DNA of 64,000 bases from a virus (IMGVR_UViG_3300025018_000093); one strand, 5' to 3'. Counted from the first letter of the stretch, positions 57,077-64,000 are shown. Numbers and translations: made by a program. Notes: generated from the letters alone by a model not told the origin.

Positions 57077-59212
57077 CTACCACTGTTGAATGACTTGTTC
57101 TGTCAGCTCTCTGGAGGTCAGCTCCGGGGAGTTCAGAAGAAGCCTCCGCGCTAATGGTACAATTCGACCCCGTTCTTTAGCCTCCAGGCCCAGTCTCTCG
57201 ATGATTTGCATGTTATCCACCGGGGGCTTCTGGAGCTTCTCCAGATAGGCATTGGCTTCGTCCTCTGCCATGGGAGCAAGGAGGCTGCGAACCTGCTTTC
57301 TTTGCTGTGCCGTGAGAAAGGATAGTGGGGTTCGCACAGGCATACCCCGGTCTAGGATGTCCAAGAGAAGTGACTTGTATCGGGGACTCGACAATTCCCG
57401 CGAAAGATACGCGGAGAAGCCTGGGTTCTCCCCAATCATTTCGGAAATAACGTCCAAGATCCCTAGCTCGTCCATCAAGTCCAACATCTTCGAGGCATTC
57501 GATTGCATGAGGATGTTGTGCACCAGGATGCTCGCGATGGCCTCGTAAGGCATTCGCTTCATCTTGGGAGCGTGCTTCCGCAGCGCAGCCTCGGTCTTGG
57601 GTGTCATTTGGAACCCGTAGCGACCGATGAATTTGATGGCCCGCAGGATGCGACTGGGATCATCCGAGAAGGTTTGATTGGGATCGGAGGGGCATTGCAT
57701 ACGACGCTCTGTCAAGTCCCGGAGTCCGCAACCTGTCAAGTCGATAATCTCCGCCTTCTCTGGCCCGTCCACCAAGTCGAATAGCCGCCACATCAAGCTG
57801 TTCCACGTAAATTCTCTGCGACGCACATCATCTTCAATGGTTGCCTGGGAGACTTCCGTGGGTTTGTATCCCTTTCCACCTTCGCCTTTGCCGTAGCTTT
57901 CTGTCCGAGCGTTGGCCACCTCGATGACTTCACCTCGTAGGTTCTCCCCTTCTAGCTCCCAGTCCCCTTTCACGCTCAGGATGGCCACCCCATACTGATT
58001 GGTTGTCACAGTTGTGGGTGTGGGTATCTTGTGGGACACCAGCTTCGCAAAGTCTCCGGAGTCCATACCTGCTCGCACGCTGTCTATCACCACGTCAATG
58101 TCCTTGATTGGCTTGCGGAGAATGAAGTCTCGCACCGCTCCCCCGACTACATAGACATGCTTGGCGATCCTGGCCTCCCGTGCGATTGCGGAGAGAAACT
58201 TCATGAGAGCGATGGACCGCTTGTGTTCCTTGGATTCCAGGTACCGGGTAGCCACTCGCACAGAAGAGGGTCCGAGTTGAAAGTAGAACCGCTGCCCGTT
58301 TGAGATCCCAACGGTGCCGGACAGGACAGGACCATTGACTTTGCGAAAGCCCCGGGCTAGCAGTTTGTTTGCTTCTTTGGGGCTCGCTCCTTCCGTGGCT
58401 ACCGTGACGTGCGGAACGTCGTTGTCCACAGGAAGTCCTCCTGGGTCCACAGCGACGACTTGTAGGCTTTCATCTGAGGCGATCCCTGTGACCTTGACTT
58501 GGGCCTTGGCACCAATGGGAAGCGCTTCTAGTTCCTCCGGCGTGAGGCGGAACTTCATTGTCATGTGGTTAGCCCAGGCCGTGGGGAGAACACCTCCGAT
58601 ATCCTGCACCCACCACTGCAGCAATGTCTTAGGATTGTCGAGAACCAGACCTACGTACACTGCTTGCTTCACATCCGGGAGTTGCCCAAGGTCTTGCGGT
58701 CCACAGTTTACCTCTGCGGGTTTGGACCTCACAGGGTGCGCGCGAACCTCGTAGCCAGCTCGCTGAAGCATCTGGGCGTAGCTCTGTAGCAAGTCGCGTT
58801 GGTCATCCCACAATTCTACCTCAGACACGAACGGGAACTTGCTCAGAGTGTCACGAAGCACCTTTCGTTTGAAGGCTCCCGTGGATTCCAACCCCCCTCT
58901 AGGGTTCAAGTGGACCTCGTCGAAATCGAGATTGGCACCTCGCAGAATTTCGGGTATCCGCCATCGAAAGATTCTGTCGCTGCGCCCGGTGCAGAGAATG
59001 GCATAGGTGTTTGGGTCTGCGATGGCTCTTCGAGCTTCCTGAAGTACGGAATTGACCCACCACTCGGATCCCGGTCGAAGGGGAACGCAGGGTGGGCTCA
59101 AAGACAGATCATCCACATACCAACCGCGCTCATACCAGGGGGGAGGAGCGGGCGAGCGAAACAGAGTACCGTCGAAGTCGAACATTGCTAGCGTGGGCAT
59201 TACCACCTCCAT
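57077..59212 (-). CDS. Three-domain RNA end-repair protein: HAD phosphatase + 2H phosphoesterase + tRNA nucleotidyltransferase (CCA/poly(A) polymerase family)
   Basis: FDFDGTLF..LCTGR..LWDD (HAD); NHMT and PHVT (2H); VYVVGGAVRD...KDID, DDVRRREFT.N, FSDDPSRILRAIKF (class II NTase). Confidence 0.88.
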   Translation of the reverse strand: MEVVMPTLAMFDFDGTLFRSPAPPPWYERGWYVDDLSLSPPCVPLRPGSEWWVNSVLQEARRAIADPNTYAILCTGRSDRIFRWRIPEILRGANLDFDEVHLNPRGGLESTGAFKRKVLRDTLSKFPFVSEVELWDDQRDLLQSYAQMLQRAGYEVRAHPVRSKPAEVNCGPQDLGQLPDVKQAVYVGLVLDNPKTLLQWWVQDIGGVLPTAWANHMTMKFRLTPEELEALPIGAKAQVKVTGIASDESLQVVAVDPGGLPVDNDVPHVTVATEGASPKEANKLLARGFRKVNGPVLSGTVGISNGQRFYFQLGPSSVRVATRYLESKEHKRSIALMKFLSAIAREARIAKHVYVVGGAVRDFILRKPIKDIDVVIDSVRAGMDSGDFAKLVSHKIPTPTTVTTNQYGVAILSVKGDWELEGENLRGEVIEVANARTESYGKGEGGKGYKPTEVSQATIEDDVRRREFTWNSLMWRLFDLVDGPEKAEIIDLTGCGLRDLTERRMQCPSDPNQTFSDDPSRILRAIKFIGRYGFQMTPKTEAALRKHAPKMKRMPYEAIASILVHNILMQSNASKMLDLMDELGILDVISEMIGENPGFSAYLSRELSSPRYKSLLLDILDRGMPVRTPLSFLTAQQRKQVRSLLAPMAEDEANAYLEKLQKPPVDNMQIIERLGLEAKERGRIVPLARRLLLNSPELTSRELTEQVIQQW

Positions 59213-60289: not shown

Positions 60290-60612
60290 CGCTTTCGTTC
60301 CCACTCCAATTCTAGGATGGAGCGCACCGTTGAAATGGTGGTCAACGCCCAAGTTTCTAAGTGCGTGAACAAGCGCGACCTCGAAGTGTCCTCCATGACG
60401 GCCACTGCCAGGTATACCTGGATGTTTCCGATTGCCTCTCCCAGGTAGCGCATCGTGTCCCAGGGATCTCCCTTCGTGAGAGAGGTGTGCGCTCGTTGTA
60501 GAGCCTGCGCTGCCAGAGGGCATTCTATCTCTGTCTCCTGTTGCAGCTCTTGGAGTTCAATGAATGCCTTGGTTCGCAGGCCGATTCTCGCCTCATGCTC
60601 TTTTTTTGACAT
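60286..60612 (-). CDS. Hypothetical helical protein
   Basis: Likely ATG at 60612 (MSKKEHE). Confidence 0.5.
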   Translation of the reverse strand: MSKKEHEARIGLRTKAFIELQELQQETEIECPLAAQALQRAHTSLTKGDPWDTMRYLGEAIGNIQVYLAVAVMEDTSRSRLFTHLETWALTTISTVRSILELEWERKR

Positions 60613-60785
60613 GACTTTCTCCGATGGTTGTCGAAACGCAACGCGCCCCCACACTATACCGTCTGCATCTTTCTTTTGCCGTGTGGTATGGTTTGTTGAT
60701 TTCCCTTGAACCGCATGGGTTCTCGGGGTACAGACGCGGACCTAGCACACTCCAGAGGGTGTGCAATTCACACGGGAGCAGGAAC

Positions 60786-61064
60786 ATGACCAAAGCTGAT
60801 TTCATCAAAGCCATCGCAGAGCAGCACCAGGATCTTTCCAAGTCCAAAGTCGAAAGCATCCTGGACAGTGTCTTCGACACTATTTCCGCCAATCTGGATG
60901 ATGGTGAGAAGGTGACCTGGGCTGGATTTGGAAGTTTTGAGACTTCCAAGCGTGCTGCGCGTCAGGGGCGTAACCCTCAGACAGGGGAAGCTCTGCAGAT
61001 CCCTGCGAGCACCCACGTCAGCTTCAAGATTGGCAAGAAGCTCAAGGACTACTTGAACAGGTAG
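60786..61064 (+). CDS. hup: HU-family DNA-binding protein
   Basis: MTKADFIKAIA...GFGSF....RAARQGRNPQTGE...IPA....F..GK.LK. Confidence 0.97.
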   Translation: MTKADFIKAIAEQHQDLSKSKVESILDSVFDTISANLDDGEKVTWAGFGSFETSKRAARQGRNPQTGEALQIPASTHVSFKIGKKLKDYLNR

Positions 61065-61132
61065 TCGTCGATTGTCTCGCCTACGCCAAACGGGGTCTGG
61101 ACATTTTCCATGATCCCCGCGTAGGACTGTGG

Positions 61133-61438
61133 TTGGGGGTGTACCTCAACCACAGGAGGGACCATGAGGACGCGCATCAAGTTGTACTGGACACCGTAGA
61201 GGGAACCTTCAACGTCGAAGTGAGGGTCTGCGGGGAATATCACCCTGCAACTTGGGGGTGGAATGGGGTTTTTCCCGAGGAGTACCCCGCAGTCAAAGTG
61301 CTCTCTATCCAGGGAGAGCACGAGAATCTTTACACGTTAGAGGAACTCGCCACTCTGCTGGAGAGCACACCCGAAAAGGTGGAAGACCTCATCATGGAGT
61401 TGCTACCAGACCTTCTTGAAGAGGATGCTCCGTTCTGA
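61133..61438 (+). CDS. Acidic hypothetical protein
   Basis: 101 aa ORF; start uncertain. Confidence 0.55.
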   Translation: MGVYLNHRRDHEDAHQVVLDTVEGTFNVEVRVCGEYHPATWGWNGVFPEEYPAVKVLSIQGEHENLYTLEELATLLESTPEKVEDLIMELLPDLLEEDAPF

Positions 61439-61597
61439 TTCCTGGAGTACCTGCCGTCCTAGGCAGTATGCAAAAAGATTCTGATCCCAGCACCAAAGTG
61501 GAGTTGGGTTAGTAAGCCCTTCGAGTGCGTAGGACTCTAGGGCAGTATGCAAAAAAAGATTCTGATCCCAGCACCAAAGTGGAGTTGGGTCAATAAG

Positions 61598-61666
61598 ACG
61601 CTCAAGCCCTGAGCGGAGGTCCCTCGGGATCTCGTGTGGAATTGGGTGTCTGTCAGGGCAGGCACC
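61598..61666 (+). ncRNA. Circularly permuted pistol-like ribozyme, copy 1
   Basis: ACGC-UCAA-G-CCCUGA-GCG, 7-bp P3, GU at 61634-61635, GUGG, linker, P1 GGUGUCUG/CAGGCACC with UCAGGG loop. Confidence 0.75.
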
Positions 61667-61708
61667 GCAGGGAGGCAATCAAGCCTCACACAACCAAGGA
61701 GAATTGCT

Positions 61709-62239
61709 ATGCCGAACGAACCTTATGTGCATCCTACTCCCATCGCCAATCTCGGGGACGCGAACTTTCTGAATTACGGGGGGCGCCTGGTGTTTCCCGG
61801 TGTCTCAGAAGGGGATGAATTCTACATGGAGGCCATCTTGGAGCCCCCGGAGGACTGCGAGGAAGACGAGGAAACGTGGACGGTCTACCGCTTCGACCTG
61901 GAACGTTTCCAGGTCGTGGAAAAGGGCAACCACCTTTACCTCGTCCCAGAGAAATGGGAGGCGCCATGGCCGCACGCTCTCTCGCGGTATGATGAGTGGT
62001 TTCATCAGGACTTGAAAGCTGTCGCGGAGTCCCAGGGCACCACAGTCCAAGAGCTTCGAGCAGCTTTCTGCTCGGAGGATCCTGTGAAGCGAGCCTGGGC
62101 CTGGTGTGCTGTGAGTGACCACCACGGATTCCACGAGCTTTATCCCTTGAGGCTGTCTCAGCACGAGGCCCACAGTCGCTACGGACTCCTGGAGAATTGC
62201 TACTGTGAGTCCTGTGTGCCGTGCCAGGACAACGACTAG
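61709..62239 (+). CDS. Acidic hypothetical protein (cassette gene)
   Basis: SD AAGGAG, ATG 61709; stop abuts the next ribozyme. Confidence 0.75.
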   Translation: MPNEPYVHPTPIANLGDANFLNYGGRLVFPGVSEGDEFYMEAILEPPEDCEEDEETWTVYRFDLERFQVVEKGNHLYLVPEKWEAPWPHALSRYDEWFHQDLKAVAESQGTTVQELRAAFCSEDPVKRAWAWCAVSDHHGFHELYPLRLSQHEAHSRYGLLENCYCESCVPCQDND

Positions 62240-62312
62240 CCGCTCAAGCCCTGAGCGTCCCACCCTGAAGGAGGTGGGGGTGCGGAACGATTTTCAGGCT
62301 GTCAGGGCAGCC
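62240..62312 (+). ncRNA. Circularly permuted pistol-like ribozyme, copy 2
   Basis: CCGC-UCAA-G-CCCUGA-GCG, P3 UCCCACC/GGUGGGG, GU at 62280-62281, GCGG, P1 GGCUG/CAGCC with UCAGGG loop, then A tract. Confidence 0.82.
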
Positions 62313-62396
62313 CGAAAAAAGATTCTGATCCCAGCACCGGAGTGTGGTTGCTGGGGTAGGAGGCAATCTCGCCTCCCGTAACCAATGGAGACAACC

Positions 62397-62747
62397 ATGA
62401 ACTCTGACCAACATCTGCGAACGGTTACCCTCCAGGGGTACGAGCTGACCACCTGGGACACCTACAGGACCGGCGCCTTCAGGGAGTCGATCCTGGGGTA
62501 TCGATTCGCTGCTCCCAGGGGCGAAGTCCTCTTCACGGGGGAGGACTTCTGCTGCTCGCCGCTGCTCGACATCGACAGCGATGAGGCGGTGCGAAGCCTC
62601 CTGGGATTCCTCTGCCTCCGTCCTGGGGACACGGACTCGGAGTACTTCGAGAACTACACGCCAGCACAGCTCGCCTTCGCAGAAGGGGATGCGGAGCAGC
62701 TCTCAATGTACGCCATGGAGGAGGACCCGTTCCCCTTCGACGAGTAG
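62397..62747 (+). CDS. Acidic hypothetical protein (cassette gene)
   Basis: SD GGAG before ATG 62397 (alternative start 62385). Confidence 0.72.
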   Translation: MNSDQHLRTVTLQGYELTTWDTYRTGAFRESILGYRFAAPRGEVLFTGEDFCCSPLLDIDSDEAVRSLLGFLCLRPGDTDSEYFENYTPAQLAFAEGDAEQLSMYAMEEDPFPFDE

Positions 62748-62751
62748 CTAG

Positions 62752-62825
62752 CCGCTCAGGCCCTGAGCGCTCCACCCCTCCTGGGTGGGGGTCGGAACAA
62801 TCCGAGTACCTGTCAGGGCAGGTAC
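62752..62825 (+). ncRNA. Circularly permuted pistol-like ribozyme, copy 3 (one G missing in P2 3' strand)
   Basis: CCGC-UCAG-G-CCCUGA-GCG, 8-bp P3, GU at 62791-62792, CGG, P1 GUACCUG/CAGGUAC with UCAGGG loop. Confidence 0.7.
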
Positions 62826-62833
62826 AATCTGGA

Positions 62834-62857
62834 GTGCCTTCCGGGCACGTCTTTTTT
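62834..62857 (+). terminator. Possible intrinsic terminator
   Basis: GTGCC-TTCCG-GGCAC stem followed by GTC and T6. Confidence 0.5.
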
Positions 62858-63001
62858 GTGGCATAGGATGAGAGGAAGGCACAGCGGGACGCACACTCCT
62901 GCTGTGCAATACTTTGATTTTATTCCATACTTGACGGCAAGATGGTCAAGTTCTCGCAGAGCACCTGCGTTACGGCGGGTGTCCCTCAAAAGGAGAAGAG
63001 G

Positions 63002-63682
63002 ATGCATTTACTCGTATCCGTGCTGCTGTCAATTGTTGCCTACAGCAGTGAAGCCCCGCAAGAGACCTTGGAAGCAGAGATGGAAAGGCAGCTTTTTGTG
63101 CTGCACATGAACCTGGCTGTAGGTCTGCCAGCCGAATATGGCGCCGCATTGTATGATGCAGCTGCAGACAATCAGGTGGACAGATATGAGTTGGCGGCTG
63201 TGCTCATTGCAGAGCATGCCGGACCCGACTACGATTTCTCGCTGGGGAGTGCTAGAAAATACAGGACGCTGAACTTTGATCCCCTGTCTGAGGGCACCTC
63301 GAAAGAGCGAGGTCTGTTTCAAGTCAAGCCCTCGTGGGCAAAGAAAGCTGGGGTGAGCAAGGACGACTTGTTTGACCCAATAGTCAACATCCAAGTCGGG
63401 GCTTTCATCGTCCAGACAAACCAAGCAAAGCATGCCAAAGCATGCGCCTCCTCAAAGTACGTATGGCATTCGTGGTATGCCCACTACACATGCCATCGTC
63501 GGGAGCGGAACAAGCTCCAGGGGTTCTGCCGGTTCAAGCAGTTGCGCTACGAGAAGATATTGCATTCGTTGACAGAAGCCACACCTGATTTCAAAGCCTT
63601 GACGTCTGCATACAAGCTCAATTTGAAGAGGACGCTCAAGCGTGCGCAGAAAGCGTCTGCGGCAATCCCAGAAGAGGAGTAG
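63002..63682 (+). CDS. Lytic transglycosylase (SLT-like) with signal peptide
   Basis: SD AAGGAG; hydrophobic N-terminus; LAAVLIAE (catalytic Glu), RGLFQV, LFDPIVNIQVGA. Confidence 0.75.
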   Translation: MHLLVSVLLSIVAYSSEAPQETLEAEMERQLFVLHMNLAVGLPAEYGAALYDAAADNQVDRYELAAVLIAEHAGPDYDFSLGSARKYRTLNFDPLSEGTSKERGLFQVKPSWAKKAGVSKDDLFDPIVNIQVGAFIVQTNQAKHAKACASSKYVWHSWYAHYTCHRRERNKLQGFCRFKQLRYEKILHSLTEATPDFKALTSAYKLNLKRTLKRAQKASAAIPEEE

Positions 63683-63761
63683 TCCTCCTGTCAGGGCAGC
63701 ACGAAAAAAGATTCTGATCCCAGCACCAAAGTGGAGTTGGGTCAGTAGAGGGGAAGACAAG

Positions 63762-63835
63762 CCGCTCAGGCCCTGAGCGTCCCTGGCCGAAAGGCCAGGG
63801 GGTGTGGAACGAAGTCGTGCTGTCAGGGCAGCACG
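63762..63835 (+). ncRNA. Circularly permuted pistol-like ribozyme, copy 4
   Basis: CCGC-UCAG-G-CCCUGA-GCG, 9-bp P3 with GAAA tetraloop, GU at 63802-63803, GUGG, P1 CGUGCUG/CAGCACG with UCAGGG loop, then AAAAUAA. Confidence 0.85.
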
Positions 63836-63889
63836 AAAATAAATTCTGATCCCAGCACCAAAGTGGAGTTGGGTCTGGAGGTCTAAGCC

Positions 63890-64000
63890 ATGAGTTGGTG
63901 GATTAATGACAGCGAGGACGGATGGCGGTACACCGACCCCGGAAGAAGATGGGCTCCGAAGGAGCCGACGGCGAAGGAAGTCGCGGCCAATAACGCGGTG
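63890..64000 (+). CDS. Start of next cassette gene (truncated by window edge)
   Basis: SD GGAGGT, ATG 63890, open to the end of the window. Confidence 0.6.
   Translation, partial: MSWWINDSEDGWRYTDPGRRWAPKEPTAKEVAANNAV

What the first reader, a model, noticed from the sequence alone, without database searches (positions are those of the whole stretch)
61598..64000. Ribozyme-punctuated gene-cassette array
Seen: the repeating unit is ribozyme, A tract/hairpin, SD, one gene, stop codon, next ribozyme; stops lie 0 and 4 nt before copies 2 and 3. Inference: self-cleavage cuts a polycistronic (probably early) transcript into single-gene mRNAs. Because of the permutation the cut is mid-ribozyme, so each mRNA keeps a 5'-OH end with the P1 hairpin and a 3' P3 hairpin with cyclic phosphate, protecting both ends without host RNases. 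The array continues past the window edge.
Basis: inference. Interest (0 to 1): 0.78.

Follow-up and report, generated by a model that had tools for sequence, protein, structure and literature searches.

The report
Permuted pistol ribozymes between phage genes
At the end of this huge-phage window, four copies of a self-cutting RNA (a pistol ribozyme whose parts are in a rearranged order) each begin at or just after a stop codon or lie just before the next gene, most likely chopping one long transcript into single-gene messages; ribozyme arrays in phages are known, but this ribozyme form and this tight packing are new.

Summary
Window 61598-63835 carries four same-strand copies of an approximately 70-nt RNA element. 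Gene 1's stop lies 0 nt before copy 2 and gene 2's stop 4 nt before copy 3.

The element has the pistol catalytic core: P2, pseudoknot strand, P3, an N|U cleavage junction and the P2 return strand. Its P1 hairpin lies downstream instead of upstream, so it is a natural circular permutation. Rfam's Pistol model therefore matches only its 3' two-thirds (22-25 bits, below the 34.5 threshold).

A covariance model finds 36 copies in the window and 11 further metagenome contigs, one from a second sample of the same phage:
- 97% of cells form standard pairs, and 18 of 25 pairs show double changes.
- The pseudoknot, which was not in the model, covaries C-G to U-A with the same unit's downstream P1.
- All catalytic residues are invariant.
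- In most of the 35 units where it can be judged, the upstream ORF's stop lies within about 12 nt of the start of P2. The next start codon follows 14-21 nt later, or 72-77 nt with an A-tract/hairpin module.

Cleavage and transcript processing remain inferred, because no RNA data exist. Clustered ribozymes around phage genes have been known since 2011, and this scan found canonical arrays on other DNA. I class this as a new variant of a known kind. Continuation past the window edge is unproven.

The parts
61472..61510 (+). A-tract + long irregular hairpin module (M_c), copy a. It is preceded by a decayed P1-like hairpin (61451-61466) with no ribozyme core.
61551..61591 (+). M_c copy b, preceded by a decayed P1 (loop word differs at 2 positions).
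61598..61666 (+). Permuted pistol copy 1. P2 5' 61598-61601; pseudoknot strand 61607-61612; P3 61616-61633; predicted cut 61634|61635; P2 3' 61636-61639; P1 61645-61666. This is the weakest copy: 44 bits, 3-bp P2, no A-run after P1.
61671..61688 (+). Small conserved hairpin (M_d) in front of the SD of gene 1. A second copy lies at 62359-62376.
   Evidence: family D5
61709..62239 (+). Gene 1, 176 aa, no Pfam family. Its TAG stop abuts copy 2.
62240..62312 (+). Permuted pistol copy 2. P2 62240-62243; P3 62258-62279; predicted cut 62280|62281; P2 3' 62282-62285; P1 62297-62312. Rfam Pistol partial match 23.7 bits; model R1 73 bits.
62315..62358 (+). M_c copy c (A-run 62315-62320 directly after P1, then the hairpin). 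The stem differs from the other copies but keeps its pairing.
62397..62747 (+). Gene 2, 116 aa, no Pfam family. A homologue with 62% aa identity in L060 is also preceded by ribozyme + M_c.
62752..62825 (+). Permuted pistol copy 3. P2 62752-62754 (C62755 unpaired); P3 62770-62790; predicted cut 62791|62792; P2 3' 62793-62795; P1 62806-62825.
62834..62857 (+). Intrinsic-terminator-like hairpin with T-run, 8 nt after P1 of copy 3. It is the only such site on the + strand of the array.
63002..63682 (+). SLT-domain (lytic transglycosylase) gene, 226 aa.
63628..63699 (+). Decayed unit. The core remnant lies inside the SLT 3' coding end and has lost its pseudoknot strand. An orphan P1 (63688-63699) has only a 3-bp stem.
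   Evidence: 19.6 bits, E 0.0036
63704..63745 (+). M_c copy d.
63762..63835 (+). Permuted pistol copy 4. P2 63762-63765; P3 63780-63801; predicted cut 63802|63803; P2 3' 63804-63807; P1 63816-63835.
63836..63875 (+). M_c copy e.
63890..64000 (+). Gene 4, which runs off the window. Its link to the array at 63874 is polymorphic or ambiguous in the source metagenomes.

Best explanation
The last 2.5 kb of the window is part of a phage operon-like gene array. Its intergenic spacers consist almost entirely of a natural circularly permuted pistol self-cleaving ribozyme.

**Layout of each unit.** A unit starts at or within a few nt of the upstream stop codon, and runs in this order:
1. P2 5' strand
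2. a 4-5-nt joiner
3. pseudoknot strand with the catalytic G40-C41-G42
4. P3 hairpin
5. N|U scissile junction
6. P2 3' strand
7. a 6-14-nt linker
8. P1 hairpin, whose 6-nt loop forms the pseudoknot
9. usually an A-run

**Proposed mechanism (inferred).**
- Once P1 has been transcribed, the pseudoknot forms. The RNA then cuts itself by the usual internal transesterification of pistol ribozymes.
- The upstream message keeps its stop codon and ends about 40-45 nt later in the GC-rich P3 hairpin, plus one nucleotide bearing a 2',3'-cyclic phosphate.
- The downstream message starts with a 5'-OH uridine and carries P1 in its leader. In about half of the units it also carries a second long hairpin (M_c), ahead of the Shine-Dalgarno site.
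- The phage thereby turns a polycistronic transcript into single-gene mRNAs with fixed, structured ends, without a host endonuclease. This is the job that RNase III sites do in T7 early RNA (established knowledge, recalled).

**Shown here:** the structure, its conservation, its permuted topology and its position relative to genes.

**Inferred:** catalysis, co-transcription, and any effect on stability or translation.
For: **Match to pistol.** Rfam Pistol (RF02679) matches positions 22/24-68 of 68 in copies 2-4 at 22-25 bits. It aligns the joiner, pseudoknot strand, G-C-G, P3, GU and P2.

**More copies elsewhere.**
- A metagenome scan retrieved 10 further contigs with 1-4 copies each.
- Model R1 finds 36 copies at E<1e-6.

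**Covariation.**
- 97.1% of cells form standard pairs, against 34-47% when partners are slid.
- 18 of 25 pairs show double changes; 0 of 500 shuffles reach this.
- The pseudoknot was not part of the model. Its pair 17-99 reads 27 C-G and 5 U-A with none unpaired.
- Where neighbouring units differ in this pair (L059, L062, L057), the core matches its own downstream P1 rather than the upstream unit's P1.

**Conserved residues.**
- A31, purine-32, G33, G40, C41 and G42 are invariant in 34/34 units, and U54 in 35/35.
- N53 varies, as in canonical pistols (PMC4604425, PMC6154101).
- An A-run follows P1: AA in 27/33 units and AAA in 19/33. This is where canonical pistols keep the conserved A19-A21 that dock into P1 (PMC6101554).

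**Position relative to genes.**
- All units lie on the coding strand.
- In most of the 35 units where it can be judged, the upstream ORF's stop lies within about 12 nt of the start of P2, and always 5' of the cut.
- The next start codon lies 14-21 nt after the model end, a few nt past P1, or 72-77 nt after it with M_c.

**Other support.**
- A strain variant of copy 2 changes 8 bases of P3 and keeps, even extends, the pairing: A-U becomes G-C at 62262/62275.
- No sigma-70-like promoter lies within the array (the one weak match in the scanned 60500-64000 sits upstream at 60874-60902, inside the HU gene), and only one terminator-like site lies on the + strand of the array.
- Precedent: clustered hammerheads flanking phage genes cleave in vitro and in E. 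coli (PMC3088659).
Against: - No cleavage assay exists, and no RNA run was available.
- The units score below Rfam's gathering threshold, because P1 is not where the model expects it.
- The canonical P1-to-P2 joiner is broken in this topology. Six of 33 units, including copy 1, lack the A-run.
- In many units the P2 3' strand is one nt shorter than the 5' strand. One unit has a 3-nt junction.
- All copies found by the pattern scan share one pseudoknot word by construction. All come from one phage group in a few metagenomes, so they are related and the shuffle statistics overstate independence.
- Copy 3 is followed by a terminator-like site, so not every gene here needs cleavage.
- The core word is nearly palindromic and can form a competing 7-bp hairpin.
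- The benefit of 5'-OH and cyclic-phosphate ends depends on the host.
Confidence: 0.55

Rival explanations
1. The units are mainly selfish or recombinogenic intergenic modules. On this reading, ribozyme + hairpin blocks spread and are exchanged between intergenic sites. They act as crossover points that shuffle gene cassettes among related phages. Cleavage would be incidental, or would serve the module rather than the operon.
For: - A 116-nt ribozyme + M_c block is 97.4% identical between the window (63760-63875) and L059, where different genes flank it on both sides.
- In another sample, the otherwise 99% identical SLT locus carries a patch that replaces the linker and P1 with the version found in L062. 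A different downstream leader follows it (L050).
- One contig lacks the 132-nt unit 63744-63875, a deletion between two M_c copies. Several alternative continuations start exactly at module borders: 63743/63750/63754, 63760, 63841 and 63874.
- Decayed copies exist at 61448-61596 and 63628-63699.
Against: - Catalytic residues are invariant, and pairing is maintained by compensatory change in 36 copies. This indicates selection on the RNA fold, not only on DNA homology.
- The register with stop and start codons is tight.
- No transposase or integrase lies next to the units in the stretch examined.
- This rival is compatible with the main reading rather than exclusive of it.
Confidence: 0.15
2. 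The A-tract/hairpin module carries a phage-specific promoter or transcript start. The ribozyme in front of it then serves only to trim read-through RNA, acting as a 3'-end-forming insulator. Genes would be transcribed singly, and cleavage would not create the 5' ends of the mRNAs.
For: - The 5' half of M_c (A-run plus an 11-nt word) is nearly invariant at the DNA level.
- M_c lies at a fixed distance from the start codon: the start follows 72-77 nt after the model end.
- M_c also occurs without a ribozyme: 61472 and 61551 in the window, and L061 and L062.
- Earlier notes on this genome suggest that the phage encodes its own sigma-like and NusG-like factors (unchecked).
Against: - About 13 of 36 units have no M_c, and only 14-21 nt separate the model end, a few nt past P1, from the next start codon.
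- The M_c stem covaries, which points to an RNA-level role.
- No promoter consensus was detected, although only the sigma-70 type was tested.
Confidence: 0.1
3. The excised single-gene RNAs are circularised. After two cuts, an mRNA carries the P2 3' strand + P1 at its 5' end and the P2 5' strand + pseudoknot strand + P3 at its 3' end. These two halves can pair into one complete pistol fold in the canonical order, with the ORF sitting in the P1-P2 joiner. That would place the 5'-OH and the cyclic phosphate together, ready for re-ligation by the ribozyme or by a host RtcB-type ligase.
For: - P2 and the pseudoknot word are almost invariant across all units, while P1 and P3 vary freely. Halves from different units are therefore mutually compatible.
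- The only pseudoknot variant (U-A) would still give a G-U wobble in one of the two mixed combinations.
- Circle formation from ribozyme-flanked RNAs is established in viroid-like RNAs and retrozymes, and it was considered for phage hammerhead clusters (PMC3088659).
Against: - Pure inference; no RNA data exist.
- Pistol is not known to favour ligation.
- Perreault et al. looked for circles from hammerhead clusters and found none.
- Invariance of P2 and the pseudoknot is also explained by catalytic constraint, by recent common origin, and by my search pattern.
Confidence: 0.07
4. The elements are conserved structured RNAs that do not cleave. On this reading they would be binding sites for a phage or host protein, or translational couplers at gene boundaries, which merely resemble the pistol core.
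For: - The score lies below the Rfam threshold.
- The topology has never been tested in nature.
- Several ribozyme-associated motifs found by comparative genomics failed to cleave in vitro (PMC6765202, PMC10085705).
Against: - Every nucleotide known to matter for pistol catalysis is invariant: purine-32, G33, G40, C41, G42 and U54.
- The junction is 2 nt in all but one unit. The pseudoknot is 6 bp and the P1 loop 6 nt, all as in canonical pistols (PMC6154101).
- From recall: an engineered circularly permuted pistol is active (Mustafina et al. 2021, cited in PMC11494654). I could not read that paper.
Confidence: 0.1

Closest known systems
Clustered hammerhead ribozymes flanking single genes or short gene blocks in prophages (Perreault et al. 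2011, PMC3088659)
   Same: - Several self-cleaving ribozymes lie on the coding strand between small, mostly unannotated phage genes.
- The same proposed role applies: cutting long phage transcripts into gene-length mRNAs.
- The same open alternatives apply (splicing, circles).
   Different: - The ribozyme class differs: pistol, not hammerhead.
- The topology is permuted.
- The density is much higher, with nearly every junction occupied: 6 units in 7 kb in L059.
- The unit begins at the stop codon, or contains it.
- A second conserved hairpin module accompanies about half of the units.
- The hammerhead clusters were shown to cleave in vitro and in E. coli. These units were not tested.
Canonical pistol ribozyme (Rfam RF02679; Weinberg et al. 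2015; Harris et al. 2015, PMC4604425; structures 5K7C/5KTJ as reviewed in PMC6154101)
   Same: - P1, P2 and P3 are present, with a 6-bp pseudoknot between the P1 loop and the P2-P3 internal loop.
- The residues A31, R32, G33, G40, C41 and G42 are invariant.
- A 2-nt N-U junction is present.
- An A-run lies 3' of P1.
- The elements occur in phage genomic context.
   Different: - The strand order is P2-P3-P2'-P1 instead of P1-P2-P3-P2'. The chain is closed between P2 3' and P1 5' and opened in the P1-P2 joiner.
- The cut therefore leaves P1 on the downstream product.
- In the literature held here, only hammerhead and twister are reported with natural circular permutations (PMC10085705, PMC6765202).
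RNase III processing sites between phage T7 early genes (established knowledge, recalled)
   Same: - Both are intercistronic structured RNA elements.
- They cut a polycistronic phage transcript into individual mRNAs.
- They leave a stabilising hairpin at the 3' end of the upstream message.
   Different: - T7 depends on a host protein enzyme and yields 5'-phosphate and 3'-OH ends.
- Here the RNA would cut itself and yield 5'-OH and 2',3'-cyclic phosphate ends.
Engineered circularly permuted pistol ribozyme (Mustafina et al. 2021, ACS Synth Biol; cited in PMC11494654; not readable here)
   Same: It shows, from recall, that pistol tolerates re-connection of its natural ends.
   Different: It is a synthetic scaffold for mammalian riboswitches. 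I could not check where it was opened.

Membership tests
Pistol self-cleaving ribozyme (RF02679) | P2 and P3 stems flank an internal loop, supported by covariation. | tested here: met
   All 7 P3 pairs show double changes, with 95.8% of cells paired. In P2, 3 of 4 pairs show double changes, with 90.8% paired.
Pistol self-cleaving ribozyme (RF02679) | A P1 hairpin whose 6-nt loop forms a 6-bp pseudoknot with the P2-P3 internal loop. | tested here: met
   All 7 P1 pairs covary. The pseudoknot is 100% paired, and one pair switches C-G to U-A in 5 units. The pseudoknot was not part of the search model.
Pistol self-cleaving ribozyme (RF02679) | Conserved catalytic nucleotides: purine-32, G33, G40, C41, G42 and A31. 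| tested here: met
   invariant in 34 of 34 distinct units. Position 32 is A in 11 units and G in 23; both are active in env25 according to PMC6154101.
Pistol self-cleaving ribozyme (RF02679) | [quoted passage not shown] | tested here: met
   The junction is 2 nt in 34 of 35 units. U54 is present in 35/35. N53 is G in 17, C in 13, A in 3 and U in 1.
Pistol self-cleaving ribozyme (RF02679) | A conserved A-A-A lies in the single strand 3' of P1 and docks into the P1 minor groove. | tested here: inconclusive
   AAA lies within 8 nt after P1 in 19 of 33 units, and AA within 7 nt in 27 of 33. It is absent in 6 units, including window copy 1. Docking cannot be tested here.
Pistol self-cleaving ribozyme (RF02679) | Strand order P1, joiner, P2, P3, P2'. 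| tested here: not met
   P1 lies 3' of P2' in every unit. Copies 2 and 3 have coding sequence directly upstream. This is why I call it a permuted variant rather than a plain member.
Pistol self-cleaving ribozyme (RF02679) | Score at or above Rfam's gathering threshold (34.5 bits). | tested here: not met
   Scores are 22-25 bits, covering model positions 22/24-68 only.
Pistol self-cleaving ribozyme (RF02679) | Site-specific self-cleavage that gives 2',3'-cyclic phosphate and 5'-OH ends. | not testable with these tools
   Needs in vitro transcription or end-specific RNA-seq. No RNA run was listed.
Ribozyme-punctuated phage operon (clustered self-cleaving ribozymes, Perreault 2011 type) | Two or more ribozymes on the coding strand flank single genes or short gene blocks in a phage genome. 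| tested here: met
   The window has 4 units around 3-4 genes, and related contigs have up to 6 units. The phage identity rests on PHROG hits to polymerase and helicases.
Ribozyme-punctuated phage operon (clustered self-cleaving ribozymes, Perreault 2011 type) | The flanked genes are co-transcribed. | tested here: inconclusive
   - Many spacers are filled entirely by the ribozyme.
- No sigma-70-type promoter and only one terminator-like site were found.
- No transcript data exist.

The most novel reading that the evidence does not exclude
The permutation exists so that each excised message can close on itself.

- After two cuts, an mRNA carries the P2 3' strand + P1 at its 5' end. At its 3' end it carries the P2 5' strand + pseudoknot strand + P3.
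- All units share the same P2 and pseudoknot words. The two ends can therefore pair into one complete, canonical-order pistol fold with the ORF in the P1-P2 joiner.
- That fold would hold the 5'-OH next to the 2',3'-cyclic phosphate.
- Re-ligation, by the ribozyme itself or by an RtcB-type ligase, would give translatable, exonuclease-proof circular mRNAs during infection.

A nearby gene (57077-59212) fuses an RNA-repair HAD phosphatase, a weak cyclic-phosphodiesterase match and a CCA/poly(A)-type nucleotidyltransferase. It could alternatively heal and tail the cyclic-phosphate ends.
Probability: 0.08. Interest if true: 0.9.

Novelty: new variant of a known kind. Interest (0 to 1): 0.64.

Why it matters
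What self-cleaving ribozymes do in bacteria and phages has been an open question since 2011-2015. This phage group offers an unusually clean case.

- One ribozyme type fills nearly every gene junction, in fixed register with the stop and start codons.
- There is enough natural variation (36 copies, compensatory strain variants, presence/absence polymorphism of single units) to design direct tests.

It also adds pistol to the very short list of ribozymes with a natural circular permutation; so far only hammerhead and twister are on it.

The permutation has a functional consequence. It decides which hairpins stay on which cleavage product, so it may explain why a permuted form was selected.

If cleavage is confirmed, the units are compact, host-independent operon-processing parts that synthetic biology could use.

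Tried and rejected
- **Rfam.** At gathering thresholds there was no hit in the window or in 10 related loci. Only sub-threshold partial Pistol matches appeared.
- **Own genome.** None is held, and the ENA record behind L048 is not searchable. I therefore could not count units genome-wide or read past 64000.
- **IMG/VR scans.**
  - The 16-nt core word gave 45 single matches. It is nearly palindromic, so these are chance hits. Model R1 found only a false positive in a coding region (L035), with no P1 and no Pistol hit.
  - The M_c word gave 2 chance matches.
  - The gapped core-plus-P1 pattern gave none.
- **Other collections.** INPHARED phages gave no match. The scan of species genomes gave 2 single matches (L064, L065), which model R1 does not support. 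L052 and L056 from the metagenome scan are chance matches.
- **RNA evidence.** No RNA holder was listed in either search.
- **Extending gene 4.** tblastn against the fetched loci found nothing.
- **Promoters.** The sigma-70 scan found none inside the array; its one weak match lies upstream in the HU gene at 60874-60902. This says nothing about phage-specific promoters.
- **M_c as a hammerhead or other known ribozyme.** I considered this and rejected it. It lacks the core motifs and has no Rfam match.


Full report
**What is in the sequence**

- The last 2.5 kb of the window is built from a few repeated modules, all on the + strand and found nowhere else in the 64 kb.
- *Module M_a* is an approximately 45-nt core, found at 61598, 62240, 62752 and 63762.
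- *Module M_b* is a hairpin with an invariant inner stem and a 6-nt loop. It lies 6-14 nt downstream of each core. One extra orphan copy lies at 63688-63699.
- *Module M_c* is an A-run followed by a long irregular hairpin. It has five copies, starting at 61472, 61551, 62315, 63704 and 63836.
- A small hairpin (M_d) precedes the Shine-Dalgarno sites of genes 1 and 2.
- The genes are a 176-aa and a 116-aa ORF without Pfam families, an SLT-domain gene, and a fourth ORF that runs off the window.
- Gene 1's stop codon touches copy 2.
- The window as a whole is phage DNA: polymerase, helicases, inteins. Earlier notes of this scan place it in a huge phage.

**What the repeated element is**

- Rfam has no hit at curated thresholds.
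- At relaxed thresholds, copies 2-4 match the Pistol ribozyme model, but only over model positions 22/24-68 of 68, at 22-25 bits against a cut-off of 34.5.
- The matched part covers the P2 5' strand, the 4-nt joiner, the pseudoknot strand with G-C-G, P3, the G-U junction and the P2 3' strand.
- The missing part is P1, which canonical pistols carry at the 5' end. Here, coding sequence lies directly upstream of copies 2 and 3.
- M_b, downstream of the core, has a 6-nt loop exactly complementary to the pseudoknot strand. The element is therefore a pistol whose chain is closed between P2 3' and P1 5' and opened in the P1-P2 joiner. That is a circular permutation.

**Test with related sequences**

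- A scan of JGI metagenome contigs for core-plus-downstream-P1 returned 12 loci. Ten are real, with up to four copies each.
- I built a covariance model from 12 of these copies, none from the window and without the pseudoknot.
- The model finds 36 copies at E<1e-6 in the window and 11 contigs. These include copies that my pattern could not have found.
- On the model-fitted alignment:
  - 97.1% of cells are standard pairs, against 34-47% when the 3' partners are slid by 1-3 columns.
  - 18 of 25 pairs show changes on both sides. No shuffle out of 500 reaches any of the five measures.
- The alignment is fitted to the model, and the copies are related, so these numbers overstate independence. The pseudoknot result is independent of the model, however.
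  - Five units changed the second pseudoknot pair from C-G to U-A. None is unpaired.
  - Where neighbouring units in one contig differ in this pair (L059, L062, L057), each core matches the P1 downstream of it. It does not match the P1 of the unit upstream.
- Nucleotides known to matter for pistol catalysis are invariant (roles from PMC6154101 and PMC6101554):
  - A31, purine-32, G33, G40, C41 and G42 in 34 of 34 units;
  - U54 in 35 of 35.
- N53 varies, and the junction is 2 nt in all but one unit. This fits the description of the class (PMC4604425).
- Canonical pistols keep a conserved A-A-A just 3' of P1, which docks into P1's minor groove (PMC6101554). Here an A-run follows P1 in most units: AA in 27 of 33 and AAA in 19 of 33.
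- A DNA contig from another sample carries a variant of copy 2 with eight changes inside P3. Pairing is kept and even extended: A-U becomes G-C at 62262/62275, with a new UUCG loop.

**Position relative to genes**

- All 36 units lie on the coding strand.
- In most of the 35 units where it can be judged, the upstream ORF's stop lies near the start of P2:
  - 3-4 nt before the first P2 base in about half of them;
  - otherwise 5-12 nt before it, or inside the core. There the UAG of the joiner or the UGA of the pseudoknot strand serves as the real stop, as in L058 at 1992.
- The stop is always 5' of the predicted cut, so cleavage never removes a stop codon.
- The next start codon, with a good SD, follows 14-21 nt after the model end, a few nt past P1, when M_c is absent. 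It follows 72-77 nt after it when M_c is present.
- In the first class, the spacer is nothing but ribozyme plus SD.
- The flanked genes are mostly small ORFs of unknown function. They also include an SNF2 helicase of 757 aa, a SprT-like protein and a P-loop kinase.
- A homologue of gene 2 (62% aa identity) in L060 is likewise preceded by ribozyme plus M_c.
- In the window, no sigma-70-like promoter lies within the array. The single + strand terminator-like site follows copy 3.
- I therefore read two units:
  1. M_c, M_c, ribozyme 1, gene 1, ribozyme 2, gene 2, ribozyme 3, terminator.
  2. SLT, a decayed ribozyme, M_c, ribozyme 4, M_c, gene 4.

**How it most likely works**

- From the established pistol mechanism, the cut falls between N53 and U54. 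In the window that is 61634|61635, 62280|62281, 62791|62792 and 63802|63803.
- The upstream RNA would end in the GC-rich P3 hairpin, plus one nucleotide with a 2',3'-cyclic phosphate.
- The downstream RNA would begin with a 5'-OH U, then 10-18 unpaired nucleotides, then P1, and often M_c.
- The predicted products are 646 nt for gene 1 and 511 nt for gene 2.
- Functionally this parallels the RNase III sites of T7 early RNA, without needing a host enzyme.
- What the ends do for stability is inference. A 3' hairpin without a tail is a known barrier to 3' exonucleases. A 5'-OH avoids 5'-monophosphate-dependent RNase E, but in Bacillus it is a signal for RNase J1 (recalled).
- M_c is a covarying RNA hairpin with a nearly invariant 5' half. 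Its role is open: a second processing site, a leader stabiliser, a protein site or a promoter.

**Modularity**

- The units behave as exchangeable blocks.
  - A 116-nt ribozyme + M_c block is 97% identical between the window and L059, in different gene contexts.
  - A second sample of the same phage has a patch-wise replaced P1 and a different downstream leader (L050).
  - One contig lacks the 132-nt unit between the two M_c copies.
  - Alternative continuations start at module borders.
- The public megahit (k141-named) contig of this phage ends 140 nt after one such branch point, at 63874. Whether gene 4 really follows ribozyme 4 in the main genome, and whether the array goes on, is therefore unresolved.

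**Comparison with what is known**

- Perreault et al. 2011 described multiple hammerheads flanking single genes in prophages. They showed cleavage and proposed the same role.
- A 2019 review repeats that role as an untested idea.
- This scan has reported canonical hammerhead and pistol arrays in other phages.
- The arrangement is therefore a known kind.
- New here:
  - the ribozyme form. The literature I could search reports natural circular permutations only for hammerhead and twister;
  - the density of units and their register with the stop codon;
  - the fact that the permutation changes which structures each product keeps.
- A first-stage note of this scan (e1-5406992) on the same stretch also read the elements as permuted pistols.

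**Verdict**

- Structural identity as a permuted pistol is about 0.9.
- The processing role is about 0.55.
- Novelty: new variant of a known kind.

Noticed in passing
window 57077-59212 (- strand): A 710-aa ORF combines three domains: HAD_SAK_1 (RNA-repair phosphatase, E 9e-17), a weak fungal tRNA-ligase cyclic-phosphodiesterase match (E 0.001, below cut-off), and PolyA_pol head + RNA-binding domains (CCA/poly(A) nucleotidyltransferase). It lies 2.4 kb from an array that should produce 2',3'-cyclic phosphate ends. A link between the two is speculation.
   Followed up: partly
window 62261-62275: A low-depth contig in run X4 carries 8 clustered differences, all inside P3 of ribozyme copy 2. Pairing is kept (A-U becomes G-C) and a UUCG loop is created. 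This is population-level compensatory change, or a gene-conversion patch.
   Followed up: partly
window 63743-63875: - A contig in run X3 joins the first M_c directly to the gene 4 leader, so it lacks the 132-nt spacer + ribozyme 4 + M_c.
- Run X2 shows the reciprocal 'goes back 132' joint.
- In all four runs, another contig gives gene 4 a different upstream sequence, starting at 63874.
- The ENA assembly ends 140 nt after that point.
   Followed up: partly
window 61599-61615, 62241-62257, 62753-62769, 63763-63779: The core word is nearly palindromic. The RNA can form a 7-bp hairpin that ties up P2 5', the joiner and the pseudoknot strand. This may be a folding trap, or a switch that holds the ribozyme inactive until the downstream P1 is transcribed.
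   Followed up: no
L058 1992-1994; L054 528-530; L059 and L062 units: The ribozyme core carries built-in stop codons in two frames: UAG in the joiner and UGA in the pseudoknot strand. Several upstream genes actually end on them, so coding sequence overlaps the ribozyme by up to 14 nt.
   Followed up: partly
window 63628-63699: The 3' coding end of the SLT gene contains a decayed pistol core that has lost its pseudoknot strand. An orphan P1 follows the stop codon. The unit looks like a fossil into or next to which the SLT gene was placed.
   Followed up: partly
L059 about 7890-7860 (- strand): A (GA)n microsatellite of about 10 repeats directly follows an M_c hairpin. The same continuation appears as a loose end in run X1 at window 63750.
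   Followed up: no
window 61472-63875 and related loci: M_c is an RNA hairpin of about 17-20 bp with internal mismatches. Its stem covaries between phage groups, and its 5' flank (A-run plus an 11-nt word) is invariant. It also occurs without a ribozyme. It has no Rfam match and its function is unknown.
   Followed up: partly
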